NCBI GenBank assembly: GCA_942493035.1
Contig: OW818666.1
Span: forward strand, 4,129,464-4,193,463
DNA length: 64,000 bases
Source of the DNA: an uncultured Spirochaetota bacterium
GTDB lineage: Bacteria; Spirochaetota; UBA4802; UBA5550
Reading direction: 5' to 3'
The stretch's first letter is position 1, and the number at the start of each line of letters is the position of its first letter. Of this stretch, positions 43,412 through 56,624 are shown piece after piece. The notes beneath the pieces are model-generated. The model searched no databases. It had not been told where the DNA came from and saw only the letters and a program-made list of their open reading frames with translations. A program made the position numbers and the translations under genes.

Positions 43412-44020
43412 TTACATGTATGTCCTGAATACGGCTGCAAGTTTACCCATTATAGTTACGTCGGTACATTCAATAGGTTTATATGCGGCATTTCTCGGCA
43501 TCAGTTTAATTGAGTTGGAGGTTTTCTGCAGTACCTTAAGGGTTGCCTCATCATCAACAAGCGCTGCTACAATTTCTCCATTCTCTGCAGTATTCTGCTT
43601 CTTAATGACTGCAATATCGCCATCGAAAATTCCCCCTTCAATCATTGAATCGCCTCGGACTGTCAGAGCAAAGTATTCGCCGCGGCTGAACATCTCCTCT
43701 GGAAATGAAAGATAATCTTCAATGTTCTCCTCTGCAAGTATGGGTGTACCTGCTGCAATTCTCCCTAGAAGCGGTATACTGATCCCGGTACTTTTAATTA
43801 CGATTTCGTCGTCAATAATAACTATTGCGCGTGATTTGTTGTGCTCTGTTTTAATGAATCCTTTCTTTTCAATGGCTTTCATATGGTCATATGCGCCCTT
43901 TACAGTTATACCGAATTTATCCCCGATCTCCCGAACAGTTGGAGGGAATCCTGAATCGATAATAGATTCTTTGATAAAATTCAGAATGAGCTGCTGTTTA
44001 TCTGTCAGATCTTTGGCCAT
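43412..44020 (-). CDS. lexA: SOS repressor LexA
   Basis: Start adjusted to 44020; LTDKQ, GFPPTVREIG, LLGRIAAG.PI (Ala-Gly cleavage site), GDSM, EATLK. Confidence 0.97.
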   Translation of the reverse strand: MAKDLTDKQQLILNFIKESIIDSGFPPTVREIGDKFGITVKGAYDHMKAIEKKGFIKTEHNKSRAIVIIDDEIVIKSTGISIPLLGRIAAGTPILAEENIEDYLSFPEEMFSRGEYFALTVRGDSMIEGGIFDGDIAVIKKQNTAENGEIVAALVDDEATLKVLQKTSNSIKLMPRNAAYKPIECTDVTIMGKLAAVFRTYM

Positions 44021-44038
44021 ATTATACCTTCCATTAAA

Positions 44039-44076
44039 GCTAAACATAATATTAGCATACATTTGTTTTATGTCAA
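44039..44076 (-). promoter_or_regulatory. lexA promoter with overlapping candidate operator
   Basis: TTGACA (44071-44076)-N16-TAATAT with TGn extension; palindrome GCTAA-N8-TTAGC (44039-44056) covers the -10. Confidence 0.55.
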
Positions 44077-44240
44077 GAGAAAATAAAGAATATTATTGTT
44101 TTATTTAGTAACTATTCAAAAACCGGCTGAGAGCAATTTTACTGCGTATTTTATTATTTAAAGTATTACTGATAAGTTTTTCTTTACAATAACAAATATT
44201 TGTAAAACAATAACATTAATAAATTTGAATGAGGTGTTTT

Positions 44241-46094
44241 ATGTATAAGCCTGAAAACTTTGATGCTAAAGTAATTGATATGAAAAAATTTACCTCTCTT
44301 ATCAAACCGGGGAATAAAATATTTCTCACAAGCGGACCGGCTATTCCTGCTCTTGCAGCTAAAGAGATTGCTACATCTGAAAATCTTCGAAACTACGATC
44401 TTGAGATAATACAACTTTTTTCAACCGGTGATTTTTTTAATGATGAATCATGTGATATTCAAAATTATAGAAGAAAAACTTTTAGAAGCGGAGAGACAGC
44501 TGTTGAAGATGTATGTAATGGTAAAGAGGATTACATCCCTGCTAATCTTGTTGAGATTCCGTATATTTTTGCTACGAAGGCGATAGAGATAGATATTGCA
44601 GTAATAACCACATCTCCGCCAGATAAAAGAGGATTTATGAGCCTTGGAGTCGCAATCGATGTTGCAGATACTGTCATAAAAAATGCGGCAATTGTAATTG
44701 CAGAGGTGAATCCAAATATGCCGGTCACTTATGGAGAAACGTCGATTCATATCGATCAGGTGAATCATGTGATCTTAAGCAATGAGACGCTTCTTGAGAG
44801 AGAGAGGGTTGCATATGACAGTGTTCAGGATCTAATCGGCTGGCATGTGGGCAATCTTATTCAGGATGGTTCTACCGTTGTTCTACACGTAGGCAGAATT
44901 TTCGATGCTATTGCCGTTCATCTGATGTCAAAGAGGAATCTCGGTATTCTTACAAATGTTGTATCTGACTGGATTATAGATCTTGTTGAAGCGGGTGCTG
45001 TATCAGTTGATAGAAAGAGAGAGTGGGGCGGGCAGATCTCAACCAGCTACTGTTATGGTTCAAGAGAACTTTACGATTATGTAGACCATAATCAGCTTTT
45101 CGGTTTCTACCCGATAGCAAAACTTGCGAATCCGCTGAGTATAAAAAATATTTCAAAACTGATTAGTATTATGAATGTGGAGAAAATAGATATAACAGCT
45201 GCAAAGGTTCTGGTTTTTGCCGGTGATGATCTTCTTTCCGGTTATGAGAGTAAATTTAATTTTGCAGCAGGAACTGCATTTTCAGGAAGCGGCAAAGTGA
45301 TTTTTGCACTTAAGTCAGTAGGGCAGGATGGAGAGAGTAACATTGTAATAACACATGACAGAGATAATGATAGAATAAGGTCTACTCTCAGTACAGCAAG
45401 ATATGTTGTAACTGAGTACGGAGTTGCATCATTATTCGGTAAGTCCAACAGAGAGAGAGCTCTATCTCTTATTGAGATTGCCCATCCTGACCACAGAGAG
45501 GCTCTGTTTAATAAAGCGAAGGAGCTCGGTTATCTATATCCCGATCAGATATACAGATCAATATCTGCGAATTATCCGATCAAAATAGAGACAGTGAAAA
45601 CATTCAAAGACGGACTTGAACTGAAGATCCGTCCGATCAGAGCATCCGATGAGGATATGATGAGGCGTCTGTTCTATAAGTTCTCTGATGAATCGAAATA
45701 TTACAGATATTTCACTCATGTTAAAGTAATGCCTCATAAGAATATGCAGAAGTACCTCAGCGTCGATTACGAAAAGATTATGGCGATAGTTGCTGTATAT
45801 CAGCAGGGCAATACGGAGAGAATAGTAGCCGAGGCAAGATATGCGGCTTTCCCAAGTGGAGATGCATATGAGATGGCATTTCTTGTTGATGAGGAGTTTC
45901 AAGGTAAAGGGCTTGCTACCTTTCTTGCTAATTTTCTTATAAAGATTGCAAAGGATAGAGGGATAAAAAAACTCACCGCATCAGTTCTTGCACAGAATCA
46001 GAAGATGCTTACTGTTTTTGATAAGCTTACAGTAACTCCGCAGAAGCATTATGATGGAGAGACCATTGAGCTGGAATTTTATCTGCAGGATTAA
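44241..46094 (+). CDS. Acetyl-CoA hydrolase/transferase-fold domain fused to a C-terminal GNAT acetyltransferase
   Basis: PPDKRGFMSLG, IAEVNPNMP, VVTEYGVA.L.GKS.RERA..LI.IAHPD; GNAT IRPI, AFLVDEEFQGKGLA. Confidence 0.88.
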   Translation: MYKPENFDAKVIDMKKFTSLIKPGNKIFLTSGPAIPALAAKEIATSENLRNYDLEIIQLFSTGDFFNDESCDIQNYRRKTFRSGETAVEDVCNGKEDYIPANLVEIPYIFATKAIEIDIAVITTSPPDKRGFMSLGVAIDVADTVIKNAAIVIAEVNPNMPVTYGETSIHIDQVNHVILSNETLLERERVAYDSVQDLIGWHVGNLIQDGSTVVLHVGRIFDAIAVHLMSKRNLGILTNVVSDWIIDLVEAGAVSVDRKREWGGQISTSYCYGSRELYDYVDHNQLFGFYPIAKLANPLSIKNISKLISIMNVEKIDITAAKVLVFAGDDLLSGYESKFNFAAGTAFSGSGKVIFALKSVGQDGESNIVITHDRDNDRIRSTLSTARYVVTEYGVASLFGKSNRERALSLIEIAHPDHREALFNKAKELGYLYPDQIYRSISANYPIKIETVKTFKDGLELKIRPIRASDEDMMRRLFYKFSDESKYYRYFTHVKVMPHKNMQKYLSVDYEKIMAIVAVYQQGNTERIVAEARYAAFPSGDAYEMAFLVDEEFQGKGLATFLANFLIKIAKDRGIKKLTASVLAQNQKMLTVFDKLTVTPQKHYDGETIELEFYLQD

Positions 46095-47452
46095 ACTCCC
46101 TGTTTATTTTCTATAAGGAAGTCTATATGAAGTATAGACTTCCGGAGAAGATAAAATACAAAAACTGCATTCAGTCCGTCAGAAACAGGCATGGAGATCC
46201 ATACTCCGTTTAGAGCGAAAATCCGCGGCAGAAACCAAAGCAGCGGGAGCAGAAACAAAACCTGGCGTGTCAGTGTCATTGTTGTTGCCAGGTATACCTT
46301 ACCCGTGGACTGGAAATAGTTGCTGGCGACTACCTGAAAGCCCACTGCCGGCAGCATCAGCATAAAAATTCTCATTGCGGGAACTCCTTTAACAATCAGT
46401 TCGCTGTTATTGTTAAACATCAGAATTATCCAGTACGGGAAGATCTCTCCTATTATAAATGCAATTACTGATAGTATTGTCGCATATTTAACTGTAAGCA
46501 TTAATGTCTCTTTTACTCTTTCATAATTTCCCGCGCTGAAATTATATCCAAGGATCGGCTGTGCAGCCATATTGATTGCTATTATCGACATTATAAAGAG
46601 TGTTGCCACGCTGTTTATAATCCCCATAACTGCTACAGAGATATCTCCTCCGTACTTTATCAGCTGGGTGTTGAATACAGCCTGAACCACACTATTGGCA
46701 ATCTGCATAATAAATGGTGCCATACCGGAAGCAACAATTCCTGTTATTATTATTCTGTCCGGGATCATATTGGTGAGATGAAGATGTATTACAGATCGTG
46801 TGCCTCTGAAATGAGCGATTACATAAACAGCCAGAACAAATTGTGCAATTACAGTTCCGAGCGCTGCCCCCTTTACACCCATACCAAATCCGAATATAAA
46901 TACTGCATCGAGGACAATATTTATTGAGATGCTCAGGAGCATGGAATACATTGCGATTTTAGCATTACCCTCGGAACGTATAGACGAGTTCAAGCCGTAA
47001 CCGGTAATGGCAAAGACGGTTCCTAGAAGTATTATATTAAGATAATCGTTAGCATAACCGATGGTTTCGTTTGTAGCTCCGAAAGATTTCAACAGGGGGA
47101 CTTTAATCGCAAATCCGATTATGGTCAGCAATATCGAAACTGAAATCATCAGCGTTAGAGCATTGCCGAGTATCTTTTCTGCCTGTTCTCTGTCCGCCTT
47201 TCCCAGTGCAATAGATGTCATAATACCGGAGCCGATGCCGAAGAGCATGCCGAATCCCATGATAATAATCATAATAGGAAATACAACGGTGAGCCCCGAC
47301 AGTGCTGCGTGACCCACACCCTGTCCTATAAATATGCGCCCCACTATGTTGTAGAGTGCGCTTGTAATTACAGCAATAAATGCAGGTATATAATAACTTA
47401 GAAGAAGGGCTCTTATATCTTTACCTGCAAGATCTTTTGTCTGTTTTACCAT
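46091..47452 (-). CDS. MATE family efflux transporter (MepA-like)
   Basis: About 12 TM segments; NIVLDAVFI, GVKGAALGT, QPILGYN, RQ.LFL.P. Confidence 0.93.
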   Translation of the reverse strand: MVKQTKDLAGKDIRALLLSYYIPAFIAVITSALYNIVGRIFIGQGVGHAALSGLTVVFPIMIIIMGFGMLFGIGSGIMTSIALGKADREQAEKILGNALTLMISVSILLTIIGFAIKVPLLKSFGATNETIGYANDYLNIILLGTVFAITGYGLNSSIRSEGNAKIAMYSMLLSISINIVLDAVFIFGFGMGVKGAALGTVIAQFVLAVYVIAHFRGTRSVIHLHLTNMIPDRIIITGIVASGMAPFIMQIANSVVQAVFNTQLIKYGGDISVAVMGIINSVATLFIMSIIAINMAAQPILGYNFSAGNYERVKETLMLTVKYATILSVIAFIIGEIFPYWIILMFNNNSELIVKGVPAMRIFMLMLPAVGFQVVASNYFQSTGKVYLATTMTLTRQVLFLLPLLWFLPRIFALNGVWISMPVSDGLNAVFVFYLLRKSILHIDFLIENKQGV

Positions 47453-54908: not shown

Positions 54909-56624
54909 ATGAAAGAGAAGAAAGAAGCTCTTGCGGCTTCACAATATGTAAACCTGCTTCCAAACCTTGCGGATTATGTTGATCTCTATTCAAAGAAAAG
55001 AAAAAATTTCACAGCGCTGGCTGAATTCGACACAGGCGAGATAATCAGCTGGAAAAAGTTCAATCAATCGGTGAATGCCTTTGCGGCAAAACTCCTTTCA
55101 ATCGGATTTAAAAAGGGGGATATTATAGCAACATCACTCCCTCTTCTCAAGGAACATATTTACCTGATCTATGCATGTTATAGAACCGGAATTATAATCG
55201 CCCCTCTTGACCTTAGGTTGAAAGGGGAGGAGATCATATACTGTTTTGAAAAAATAAAACCTAAGGGATACTTTTTTCTGGGCAAAACTCCTCTGGCTGA
55301 TTTCCGTCCGATAATTTCTGAAGTTATGAAGAGTGTTACCGGTGTAGATCTCTGGGTACAGTTTCAGAAAGAACCGGAATTTATTCTGGATGGAGCTACC
55401 GGAATAACTGAATTTGCGAAGGATATAAAAAAGATTTTTATTAAAAGTCTTTTTACAGGTGCAGTTAAAAAAGCCAGGAAACTGGTTGAGAAGCGGGACC
55501 CATCCCTTATAATTTTTACTACTGGTTCAACGGGTTCACCCAAGCCGGCCCTTTTGTGTCATGAAAACATTCTGATTCAGAATATCGGACTATCCGTTGC
55601 GTTTGAACTTAATTCGGATGATGCCATGCTTGTAAATCTTCCGCCGTCTCATGTGGGGTGTATAACCGAACAGCTGGCCACGTCGATATTCGGAGGATGC
55701 AAGTCTGTTATCCTTCATATATTCAATGCCGAGAAGAGCCTTAAAGCCATTGAGCAGGAGAAGGTGACTGTTATCGGACAGATTCCTGCTCTGTTTAATC
55801 TTGAGTGGCAGCTTCCCGATTACAGTAAATATAATCTTTCATCTCTCCGCTTTATTTTATATGGAGGACAGGAGGTTCCCGTTGAATTTCTTAAGAAGAT
55901 GCAGGCAATGGCTCCGAAGATCGGTACAGGGCTGGGTCTTACAGAGACTGCGGGTTTCTGCACATATACAGATGTGGATGCAATGGTAACGGAGATTGCA
56001 AGAAGTATAGGCTATGACATGAAGCTTACTCCCATAAGTATAAGAGAACCGATGACAAGGGAAGGGCTTGCCGGAAAAGAGCTTTCAGCCGGAGACATCG
56101 GAGAGATATGTTTTGCCGGCCCGCAGATTTTTCTCGGATATTATAAGGATGAAGAGAATACAGCAAAAGCTGTTTCGAGAGACAGAGTCTGCTACACCGG
56201 TGATCTCGGCTATTACGACAATGAAGGGCTTCACTTTGTGGGACGGGCGAAATTTGTAATTAAACCTAAGGGTTATCAGGTGTATCCTCAGGATGTGGTA
56301 AATCATATATCGCAGAAACTCGGTGCAAGGGCATCGTCAATAGCCTGTGTCGGTGTTCCTCATGATATATATATGGAGGCGATTATTGCTTTTGTTGAAC
56401 CTGCACCTGGTTCGTTAATAACTCCGGAAGAGGTCATCAAATCATGCAGTGATATCTCATCTTACTCCAGGCCTTCATATGCTGTCATTCTTGAACCGGG
56501 GAAAATGCCTCTGAACCGCGTGGCAAAAGTTGACTATATGAACTTAAAGAAACAGGCAGTAACAATTATAGATGGTCTCAGGGAAAAAGGTGAATGGGAC
56601 AGAGGGGTTGACAGTCAGGAGTAG
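54909..56624 (+). CDS. AMP-forming acyl-CoA synthetase (class I adenylate-forming enzyme)
   Basis: IFTTGSTGSPK, GLTET, YTGDLG, GR, C-terminal AKVD lysine. Confidence 0.92.
   Translation: MKEKKEALAASQYVNLLPNLADYVDLYSKKRKNFTALAEFDTGEIISWKKFNQSVNAFAAKLLSIGFKKGDIIATSLPLLKEHIYLIYACYRTGIIIAPLDLRLKGEEIIYCFEKIKPKGYFFLGKTPLADFRPIISEVMKSVTGVDLWVQFQKEPEFILDGATGITEFAKDIKKIFIKSLFTGAVKKARKLVEKRDPSLIIFTTGSTGSPKPALLCHENILIQNIGLSVAFELNSDDAMLVNLPPSHVGCITEQLATSIFGGCKSVILHIFNAEKSLKAIEQEKVTVIGQIPALFNLEWQLPDYSKYNLSSLRFILYGGQEVPVEFLKKMQAMAPKIGTGLGLTETAGFCTYTDVDAMVTEIARSIGYDMKLTPISIREPMTREGLAGKELSAGDIGEICFAGPQIFLGYYKDEENTAKAVSRDRVCYTGDLGYYDNEGLHFVGRAKFVIKPKGYQVYPQDVVNHISQKLGARASSIACVGVPHDIYMEAIIAFVEPAPGSLITPEEVIKSCSDISSYSRPSYAVILEPGKMPLNRVAKVDYMNLKKQAVTIIDGLREKGEWDRGVDSQE

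What the first reader, a model, noticed from the sequence alone, without database searches (positions are those of the whole stretch)
44241..46094. CoA-transferase fold lacking its catalytic Glu, fused to a GNAT: possible acyl-CoA-sensing protein acetyltransferase
Seen: LGILTNVVSD where active enzymes have LGIHSEMxSD, and ESKFNF in place of GGQxDF; the GNAT motif is intact. Known: family I CoA-transferases need this Glu, and Pat-type acetyltransferases use dead metabolic domains as sensors and acetylate the terminal Lys of AMP-forming synthetases. Inferred: a distinct Pat-like architecture. The synthetase at 54909 (AKVD lysine) is a plausible target.
Basis: partly seen in the sequence, partly recalled or inferred. 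Interest (0 to 1): 0.55.

Follow-up and report, generated by a model that had tools for sequence, protein, structure and literature searches.

The report
Pat-type acetyltransferase with dead CoA-transferase domain
This gene fuses a protein-acetyltransferase domain of the Pat type to a CoA-transferase domain that has lost its catalytic residues. It belongs to a widespread family that I could not find described in the papers I searched, and it probably switches acyl-CoA synthetases on and off by lysine acylation.

Summary

- **Dead transferase site.** The catalytic Glu (AbfT E238) is Asn239. GGQxDF is ESKFNF. The active-site loop GIGAI is HVGRI.
- **Intact GNAT.** It keeps the Pat catalytic Glu (E544 = PatZ E809) and the QxxGxA acetyl-CoA motif.
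- **Conserved, not decaying.** In 117 relatives (at least 56% identity) the Glu position is never Glu, yet the N-domain is as conserved as the GNAT.
- **Repeated loss.** Across 77 diverse fused representatives the catalytic motifs were lost many times (about 11-17 changes on a quick tree). Standalone enzymes keep them.
- **Deacetylase fusions.** 81 Verrucomicrobial relatives add a C-terminal HDAC-type deacetylase, and all 81 lack the Glu.
- **Genome context.** The two fused paralogs are the genome's only Pat-type GNATs. The second sits 166 bp downstream of the only synthetase with a canonical PX4GK lysine motif.

My reading is a Pat-like lysine acyltransferase with a pseudo-CoA-transferase regulatory domain. 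The ligand is untested. I found no paper describing the architecture. This scan has noted the same family before on other DNA.

The parts
44241..46094 (+). CoA-transferase-like/Pat-type GNAT fusion gene (617 aa). It is monocistronic: divergent from lexA and convergent with a MatE gene.
   Evidence: ORF and translation. RBS GAGGTG. Pfam domains. AlphaFold2 model mean pLDDT 89.6, pTM 0.87.
44268..45518 (+). Pseudo-CoA-transferase domain (residues about 10-426) with the 4-hydroxybutyrate CoA-transferase / RipA fold.
   Evidence: phmmer to 9vag 1.9e-72 and 3gk7 1.6e-57. Foldseek TM (target-normalised) 0.83-0.89 to 3gk7, 2oas, 3eh7 and RipA.
44880..44900 (+). Residues 214-220 (VLHVGRI), replacing the QxGhG active-site loop (AbfT Q213, G215-I219).
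   Evidence: Gap-free alignment to 3GK7. The loop is described in PMC11659651. H216, G218 and F221 are invariant in the close clade.
44940..44969 (+). LGILTNVVSD (residues 234-243). L237 replaces the His, and N239 replaces the catalytic Glu (AbfT E238).
   Evidence: In 117 close homologues the position is N (95) or H (22), never E.
45255..45272 (+). ESKFNF (residues 339-344), replacing the GGQxDF loop.
   Evidence: E and K are near-invariant in the close clade.
45567..46082 (+). Pat-type GNAT domain (residues 443-614). It includes the Pat-specific N-terminal segment (YP...RPI..D, S.ES.YYRYF).
   Evidence: phmmer to the S. lividans PatA GNAT 4nxy 4.7e-21, E. coli PatZ 9it0 1.4e-17 and M. tuberculosis Pat 4ava 5.8e-11. 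NCBIfam mycobacterial Pat model 4.3e-22, far below its full-length cut-off. Foldseek TM 0.92, rmsd 1.9 A to 4u5y, the PatA GNAT in complex with the Acs C-terminal domain.
45870..45872 (+). E544, the GNAT catalytic glutamate (aligns with PatZ E809).
   Evidence: E or D in 117/117 close homologues and 92/96 of the wider fused set. E in 81/81 HDAC triple fusions.
45900..45917 (+). Q554-GKGL-A559, the acetyl-CoA pyrophosphate-binding motif Q/RxxGxG/A.
54909..56624 (+). Its A10-motif lysine sits in PLNRVAK (PX4AK, not PX4GK). A weak candidate only.
   Evidence: Pfam AMP-binding and AMP-binding_C. C-terminal motif.
43412..44062 (-). lexA, the divergent neighbour. This arrangement is conserved in 12 of 47 related loci. 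There is no evidence that it shares regulation with the fusion gene.
   Evidence: Pfam. Synteny. Only the lexA-proximal part of the intergenic region is conserved.

Best explanation
The gene encodes a Pat-type protein lysine acetyl/acyl-transferase. Its C-terminal GNAT takes an acyl group from acyl-CoA and puts it on the catalytic A10 lysine (PX4GK motif) of AMP-forming acyl-CoA synthetases, and possibly on other proteins, switching them off. The genome's sirtuin or HDAC-type deacetylase would reverse this.

The N-terminal 430 residues are a 4-hydroxybutyrate-CoA-transferase fold that no longer does CoA-transfer chemistry. [quoted passage not shown] The likeliest ligands are CoA, an acyl-CoA or a carboxylate.

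**Shown here:** the architecture; the loss of three active-site elements; strong conservation of the remodelled domain; intact Pat-type GNAT residues; recurrent genetic linkage to PX4GK synthetases; fusion of relatives to a deacetylase.

**Inferred:** protein-lysine substrates, the identity of the target, any ligand binding and its direction of effect, and dimerisation.
For: **1. The transferase chemistry is lost.** N239 sits on AbfT E238, ESK on GGQ and HVGRI on GIGAI.

**2. The domain is maintained, not decaying.** Mean column conservation in 117 homologues is 0.67-0.78 for the N-domain and 0.75 for the GNAT. The replacement motifs are themselves near-invariant.

**3. Catalysis is dispensable in the fusion context.**
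- Of 77 full-length fused representatives, 52 lack at least one motif.
- The Glu state needs at least 17 changes on the N-domain tree, and intact/degenerate needs 11.
- 34 of the 39 standalone enzymes form one starred clade. Within it only a single subclade of 10 lacks the Glu (Gly at that position), and it keeps GG.
- GNAT residues are kept: E/D in 92/96, Q/R/H in 96/96, G in 91/96.

**4. The GNAT is Pat-type.** Sequence and fold hits are to the SlPatA GNAT, PatZ and MtPat, with TM 0.92 to the PatA GNAT-Acs complex.

**5. Writer-eraser fusions.** At least 81 CoAT-GNAT-HDAC proteins exist as continuous ORFs on independent contigs. All lack the CoAT Glu.

**6. Genome inventory.** The two fused paralogues are the only Pat-type GNATs. 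No type I Pat was found. One SIR2 gene is present, plus two Hist_deacetyl matches, one full and one a short 161-aa frame.

**7. Linkage to PX4GK synthetases.**
- The paralogue lies 166 bp downstream of the only canonical PX4GK synthetase among 16 AMP-binding matches.
- That tandem is kept in three genera with 16-166 bp gaps.
- Syntenic orthologues of the window gene itself (L008, L044) and L005/L006 have another PX4GK synthetase directly downstream.
Against: - No biochemical datum exists for any member that I could find.
- The residues nearest the CoA thiol are all changed, so CoA or acyl-CoA binding is not assured. The domain may be a pure scaffold.
- In the window itself the gene has no synthetase neighbour; a MatE gene occupies that slot.
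- Across the wider family the gene neighbourhood is variable.
- Synthetase adjacency was seen in 8 of 47 loci, all within one order. Relatives are not independent.
- PF00850 also includes acetylpolyamine amidohydrolases (from general knowledge of the family), so the HDAC fusion does not prove a protein substrate.
- 25 of the 77 fused representatives keep all catalytic motifs.
- ThnP shows that a family-I-like CoA-transferase can work without the Glu.
Confidence: 0.6

Rival explanations
1. It is a Pat-type protein acyltransferase, but the N-domain is only an oligomerisation or substrate-docking scaffold and binds no small ligand. There is no metabolite sensing.
For: All three elements that contact the reactive end of CoA are replaced. 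The replacement E339/K341 pair could form a salt bridge that fills the pocket; that is inference. In PatZ the regulatory domain also directly shapes the Acs-binding pocket (abstract of PMC12184503).
Against: The replacement motifs are near-invariant over 117 sequences, more than a filled pocket would seem to need. The known type I-III Pat regulatory domains are reported to bind ligands.
Confidence: 0.25
2. The GNAT acetylates a small molecule (a polyamine, amino acid or other amine). The CoA-transferase-like domain holds or presents that substrate. The HDAC-fused relatives would then form a small-molecule acetylation/deacetylation pair.
For: The PF00850 family includes acetylpolyamine amidohydrolases (general knowledge). 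The gene context of most family members is uninformative. GNAT specificity cannot be read from sequence alone.
Against: The best sequence and fold matches over the whole domain, including the Pat-specific N-terminal segment, are protein acetyltransferases. There is recurrent tight linkage to PX4GK synthetases. The HDAC domain's next-best hits after the fusions are HDAC6 protein deacetylases.
Confidence: 0.12
3. The N-domain still catalyses a CoA-dependent reaction by a changed mechanism, either with a relocated nucleophile such as E339 or substrate-assisted as proposed for ThnP. The protein would then be bifunctional, for example making the acyl-CoA that the GNAT consumes.
For: ThnP is an active family-I-like CoA-transferase without the conserved Glu (PMC11659651). 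E339 and K341 are near-invariant in the clade. 25 of 77 fused representatives keep the full catalytic set, so the ancestral fusion may have been bifunctional.
Against: The Glu, the His before it, the GG oxyanion loop and the QxGhG loop are all gone at once. Different residues occupy the Glu position in different fused clades (N, H, K, P, Q, D, G, A and others), which looks like relaxed catalytic constraint rather than one new mechanism.
Confidence: 0.08

Closest known systems
Type I/II Pat enzymes (E. coli PatZ/YfiQ, S. enterica Pat, S. lividans PatA)
   Same: The GNAT is homologous over its whole length (4nxy 4.7e-21, PatZ 1.4e-17; TM 0.92). It has the same catalytic Glu (PatZ E809 = E544) and the same acetyl-CoA motif. 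Both have a large regulatory domain derived from an acyl-CoA-handling enzyme (catalytically inactive in Pat according to the review read). Both are linked to AMP-forming synthetases with PX4GK.
   Different: Here the regulatory domain is a family-I CoA-transferase fold of about 430 aa, not an NDP-forming acyl-CoA synthetase fold of about 700 aa. Whether it binds acetyl-CoA is unknown. The oligomeric state is unknown (dimer expected rather than tetramer, by inference).
Type III Pat enzymes (M. tuberculosis/M. smegmatis Pat with a cAMP domain; Micromonospora ACT-GNAT; Myxococcus MxKat with an NADP domain)
   Same: The layout is the same: an N-terminal non-catalytic domain of 300-450 aa followed by a C-terminal Pat-type GNAT. 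The NCBIfam mycobacterial Pat model hits the GNAT at 4.3e-22.
   Different: The N-domain is a pseudo-enzyme rather than a classic small ligand-binding module. No ligand is known. It is not listed in the type I-V scheme of the papers I read.
4-hydroxybutyrate CoA-transferase AbfT (3GK7) and Yersinia RipA (family I / Cat1 CoA-transferases)
   Same: Same two-lobed fold (TM 0.83-0.89), about 26-32% identity, and many shared structural motifs (SPPD..G, E.N..MP.T.G...H, AHPDxRE).
   Different: The catalytic Glu, the preceding His, the GGQxDF loop and the QxGhG loop are all replaced. A GNAT is fused to the C-terminus.
B. subtilis AcuA/AcuC (GNAT plus class I HDAC-type deacetylase acting on AcsA)
   Same: A writer and eraser pair for synthetase lysine acetylation. 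Verrucomicrobial relatives of this gene carry the GNAT and an HDAC-type domain in one polypeptide.
   Different: AcuA is a different, stand-alone GNAT. The window protein itself has no deacetylase domain.

Membership tests
Family I (Cat1-type) CoA-transferases / 4-hydroxybutyrate CoA-transferase | Two-lobed acetyl-CoA hydrolase/transferase fold | tested here: met
   Pfam PF02550 and PF13336. phmmer 1.9e-72 to 9vag. Foldseek TM 0.83-0.89.
Family I (Cat1-type) CoA-transferases / 4-hydroxybutyrate CoA-transferase | Catalytic glutamate that forms the enzyme-CoA thioester (AbfT E238) | tested here: not met
   Query N239 aligns with AbfT residue 238. E238 is named as the active site in PMC11659651. 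0 of 117 close homologues have Glu there.
Family I (Cat1-type) CoA-transferases / 4-hydroxybutyrate CoA-transferase | GGQxDF glycine loop and QxGhG active-site loop | tested here: not met
   ESKFNF and VLHVG in the query.
Pat-type GNAT protein lysine acetyltransferases | GNAT domain homologous to the Pat catalytic domain, including its N-terminal extension | tested here: met
   4nxy 4.7e-21 over query 443-614, PatZ 1.4e-17 and MtPat 5.8e-11. TM 0.92 to 4u5y.
Pat-type GNAT protein lysine acetyltransferases | Catalytic Glu (PatZ/SePat E809) and Q/RxxGxG/A acetyl-CoA motif | tested here: met
   E544 and Q554-A559, conserved across the family.
Pat-type GNAT protein lysine acetyltransferases | Acetylates the A10 lysine of AMP-forming acyl-CoA synthetases (PX4GK) | not testable with these tools
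   Only genetic linkage: PX4GK synthetases lie adjacent to the paralogue and to orthologues.
Type III GNATs (regulatory N-domain plus C-terminal GNAT) | N-terminal non-catalytic domain followed by the GNAT | tested here: met
   Domain order. Catalytic residues of the N-domain are lost.
Type III GNATs (regulatory N-domain plus C-terminal GNAT) | Ligand binding to the N-domain allosterically changes GNAT activity | not testable with these tools
   No ligand can be inferred. The residues nearest the CoA thiol are replaced.
Type I GNATs (PatZ/SePat) | NDP-forming acyl-CoA synthetase-like regulatory domain | tested here: not met
   No such Pfam domain in the protein. The only CoA_binding_2 match in the genome is a 131-aa frame.

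The most novel reading that the evidence does not exclude
CoA-transferase-like/GNAT fusions are a large, overlooked class of bacterial lysine acyltransferases. It would add a further type to the current I-V scheme. In this class a remodelled CoA-transferase pocket reads the acyl-CoA, CoA or carboxylate pool and gates acylation of acyl-CoA synthetases. Some lineages add a built-in HDAC eraser or an Fe-S redox module. In fatty-acid-fermenting and syntrophic anaerobes, which are known to carry heavy acyl-lysine loads, this would be the missing enzymatic writer.
Probability: 0.3. Interest if true: 0.72.

Novelty: new variant of a known kind. Interest (0 to 1): 0.58.

Why it matters
Bacterial protein acetylation is currently described with five GNAT types, whose regulatory domains sense acetyl-CoA/ATP, cAMP, amino acids or NADP+. 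This family would add a regulatory domain built from a dead CoA-transferase. It is not rare: I found about a hundred 50%-identity clusters, about two copies per genome in this order of spirochaetes, and cultured Verrucomicrobia with deacetylase-fused forms.

It gives a testable candidate for the enzymatic writer of acyl-lysine marks in anaerobes that live on acyl-CoA chemistry. It is also a clean natural series for studying how an enzyme becomes a pseudo-enzyme, because some members keep intact catalytic motifs, some are partly degenerate and some have lost them all. The cultured Rubritalea, Coraliomargarita and Haloferula members make experiments feasible.

Tried and rejected
- **Literature.** Searches for CoA-transferase/GNAT fusions, the Pfam names and syntroph acylomes found no description of the architecture. 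The library lacks most subscription journals, so this is not proof of absence.
- **Shared SOS control with the divergent lexA.** Rejected for lack of evidence. Only a lexA-proximal element is conserved across nine loci, and the side of the intergenic region next to the fusion gene is not conserved. The promoter and terminator scans were no better than shuffles.
It has PX4AK, not PX4GK, and co-occurs only as part of block synteny. I kept it as a weak candidate.
- **Synthetase adjacency as a general rule for the whole fused family.** Not borne out in four distant members.
- **'1 TAG inside' in two orthologues.** This is just their natural stop codon, two residues earlier.
- **Mapping AbfT Gln337, said to hydrogen-bond CoA.** The numbering did not fit my alignment, so I did not use it.
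Full report
**1. What is there**

The ORF at 44229-46094 (+) most likely starts at the ATG at 44241. GAGGTG lies a few bases upstream, and the N-terminus MYKPENFD is conserved in homologues. The gene stands alone. lexA (43412-44062) is divergent from it, and a MatE gene (46091-47452) converges on its stop codon.

Pfam finds three domains:
- AcetylCoA_hydro, residues 10-183.
- AcetylCoA_hyd_C, residues 273-426.
- A GNAT, residues 461-596.

An AlphaFold2 model built on 136 homologues is confident (mean pLDDT 89.6, pTM 0.87). Foldseek matches:
- The N-domain matches 4-hydroxybutyrate CoA-transferases and RipA (target-normalised TM 0.83-0.89).
- The C-domain matches the S. lividans PatA GNAT crystallised with the Acs C-terminal domain (4u5y; TM 0.92, rmsd 1.9 A).

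**2.

Against five solved 4-hydroxybutyrate CoA-transferases, LGILTNVVSD lies opposite LG[VI]H[ST]E[ML]xSD, and SGYESKFNF lies opposite SGxGGQxDF.

The alignment to C. aminobutyricum AbfT (3GK7) has no gap between residues 193 and 295. It puts query N239 on AbfT residue 238. PMC11659651 names that residue as the active-site Glu. The same paper describes a mobile active-site loop, Gly215-Ile219, within a QxGhG motif. In the query that loop reads HVGRI and the Gln is Val.

So three active-site elements are gone, not two. The GNAT keeps the Pat catalytic Glu (E544 aligns with PatZ E809) and the Q554xxGxA559 acetyl-CoA motif.

**3. A maintained pseudo-enzyme, not decay**

The search found 1724 proteins. 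The best 120 are 56-94% identical, and nearly all of them have the same three-domain Pfam pattern. Those that carry a name are mostly from Spirochaetota/Leptospirales, Syntrophomonadaceae-labelled and deltaproteobacterial MAGs.

In 117 full-length members:
- The Glu position is N (95) or H (22), never E.
- The His position is L, Y, V, F or I.
- E-[SG]-K-x-[NI]-F replaces GGQxDF, with E and K near-invariant.
- Mean column conservation is 0.67-0.78 across the N-domain and 0.75 in the GNAT.

**4. The wider family**

A full HMMER scan of 1.84 billion cluster representatives gave about 100 fused representatives among the best 150 hits, down to 27% identity.

| Set | Keep E + GG + D | Lack at least one | Lack the Glu |
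|---|---|---|---|
| 77 full-length fused | 25 | 52 | 38 |
| 39 standalone | 25 | 14 | 12 |

Of the 12 standalone proteins without the Glu, 10 (nine with Gly there, one with a gap) form one clade that keeps GG.

I built a FastTree of the N-domains with the trait columns removed. This is a quick method and the counts are approximate:
- 34 standalone enzymes form one starred clade.
- The fused/standalone label needs 6 changes.
- The Glu state needs at least 17 changes among fused proteins, and intact versus degenerate needs 11.

Meanwhile the GNAT catalytic residues stay in place: E/D in 92/96, Q/R/H in 96/96, G in 91/96. Once fused to the GNAT, the transferase chemistry was repeatedly dispensable while the fold was kept.

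**5. Extra fusions**

Two representatives carry a C-terminal Hist_deacetyl domain. Both are continuous ORFs on independent contigs.

A follow-up search found more than 80 such proteins of 900-960 aa. They include cultured Rubritalea, Coraliomargarita and Haloferula. After the fusions, their deacetylase domain is most similar to HDAC6. All 81 that I aligned lack the CoA-transferase Glu (Gly in 80). All 81 keep the GNAT Glu and the R/QxxG motif.

Writer and eraser in one chain ties the family to reversible N-acetylation. Other members have an N-terminal 4Fe-4S extension.

**6. This genome**

The window lies in a single 4.95-Mb contig.
- A second fused gene, 57% identical and also dead (LGVFTNVISD, SGYESKLNF), lies at 4727848-4729686.
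- These two are the only Pat-type GNATs detected.
- There is no type I Pat.
- One SIR2 gene is present, plus two Hist_deacetyl matches. One is a full match in a 460-aa frame and one is a short match in a 161-aa frame.
- The genome also carries about 16 standalone CoA-transferase paralogues.

**7. Targets**

Among the 16 AMP-binding matches in the genome, only one has a canonical PX4GK A10 motif (LPESTVGKILKK). It ends 166 bp upstream of the paralogue, on the same strand, and an acyl-CoA dehydrogenase follows.

By coordinates, this synthetase-then-fusion tandem recurs in G001, G004, G005 and G006 (same genus), G011 and G016 (two other genera). The gaps are 16-166 bp, while identities fall to 71-73% for the synthetase and 55% for the fusion. 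It also recurs in L034/L035, and in divergent orientation in L031.

For the window gene's own lineage:
- Loci L008 and L044 keep the lexA and acyltransferase-Nudix-SDR flanks, but carry a different PX4GK synthetase (LPRSAVGKPLRR) directly downstream.
- L005 and L006 carry the same synthetase directly downstream.
- In the window that slot holds MatE and ExbBD.

It is possible but weaker.

Across 41 relatives, 26 genomes have both genes, 7 have neither, 3 have only the fusion and 5 have only the synthetase. This is suggestive only, since relatives are not independent. In four distant family members the neighbourhood was uninformative.

**8. Mechanism**

The most likely reading is a Pat-like lysine acyltransferase whose regulatory module is a pseudo-CoA-transferase. 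This parallels PatZ, in which an inactive acyl-CoA-synthetase-like domain binds acetyl-CoA, drives cooperative changes and helps form the Acs pocket.

What the N-domain binds is not known. The elements nearest the CoA thiol are replaced by new conserved residues (H216, N/H239, E339, K341). That fits a remodelled ligand pocket, a sealed pocket, or (less likely) new chemistry. ThnP is a warning here: a Glu-less relative can still catalyse CoA transfer.

**9. Novelty**

The 2021 review and the 2025 PatZ paper list regulatory domains of the ACD, cAMP, ACT and NADP types only. No search returned this fusion.

Earlier notes of this scan describe the same family in other genomes and reached similar readings. 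They are AI notes, not independent evidence. I re-derived the core claims here and added four things:
- the repeated-loss count;
- the deacetylase fusions;
- the genome inventory;
- the conserved synthetase tandem.

My verdict is a new variant of a known kind: real, widespread and untested at the bench.

Noticed in passing
window:44039-44076 (lexA upstream region): The element CTAAACATAA-nnn-TAGCATACATTTGT, next to the lexA start, is the only conserved block in the lexA/fusion-gene intergenic region across nine related loci. It overlaps the palindrome GCTAA-N8-TTAGC that another first-reader note flagged as a possible SOS box.
   Followed up: partly
G000:C1:4725994-4732074 (locus L054:6995-13075): A second, 57%-identical dead CoAT-GNAT paralogue lies between the genome's only PX4GK acyl-CoA synthetase and an acyl-CoA dehydrogenase. 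The synthetase-then-fusion tandem is conserved in three genera, and the acyl-CoA dehydrogenase downstream was checked in the L034/L035 genomes.
   Followed up: yes
proteins P0188, P0146, P0286-P0367 (loci L055:2122-4989, L056:6001-9042): CoAT-GNAT-HDAC triple fusions of about 925-1013 aa occur in Verrucomicrobiota, including cultured Rubritalea, Coraliomargarita and Haloferula. All 81 aligned lack the CoA-transferase Glu.
   Followed up: partly
proteins P0141, P0150: These CoAT-GNAT proteins have an N-terminal extension of about 350 aa that contains 4Fe-4S dicluster motifs. One is from a Myxococcales MAG. This may be a redox-sensing variant.
   Followed up: no
genome G000, e.g. C1:1897163-1898419, 2747742-2750527, 4457845-4458873: The genome holds about 16 standalone 4-hydroxybutyrate-CoA-transferase-family paralogues (430-477 aa). 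One, at 4530079-4531371, has an in-frame TAA. This is an unusually large CoA-transferase repertoire.
   Followed up: no
proteins P0235, P0247, P0253, P0260, P0261, P0264, P0266, P0268, P0272: A clade of standalone family members has Gly at the catalytic-Glu position (HSG) but keeps GGQxDF. It could be a subfamily with a different mechanism or function.
   Followed up: no
window:49053-51236 (-): A 727-aa fusion of a PlsC-type acyltransferase domain and an alpha/beta-hydrolase (S33) domain travels with a Nudix gene and an SDR gene in 13 related loci.
   Followed up: no
window:41788-43257 (-): A 489-aa ORF with no Pfam match at E <= 0.001 is conserved next to lexA in 11 related loci (47-74% identity).
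   Followed up: no
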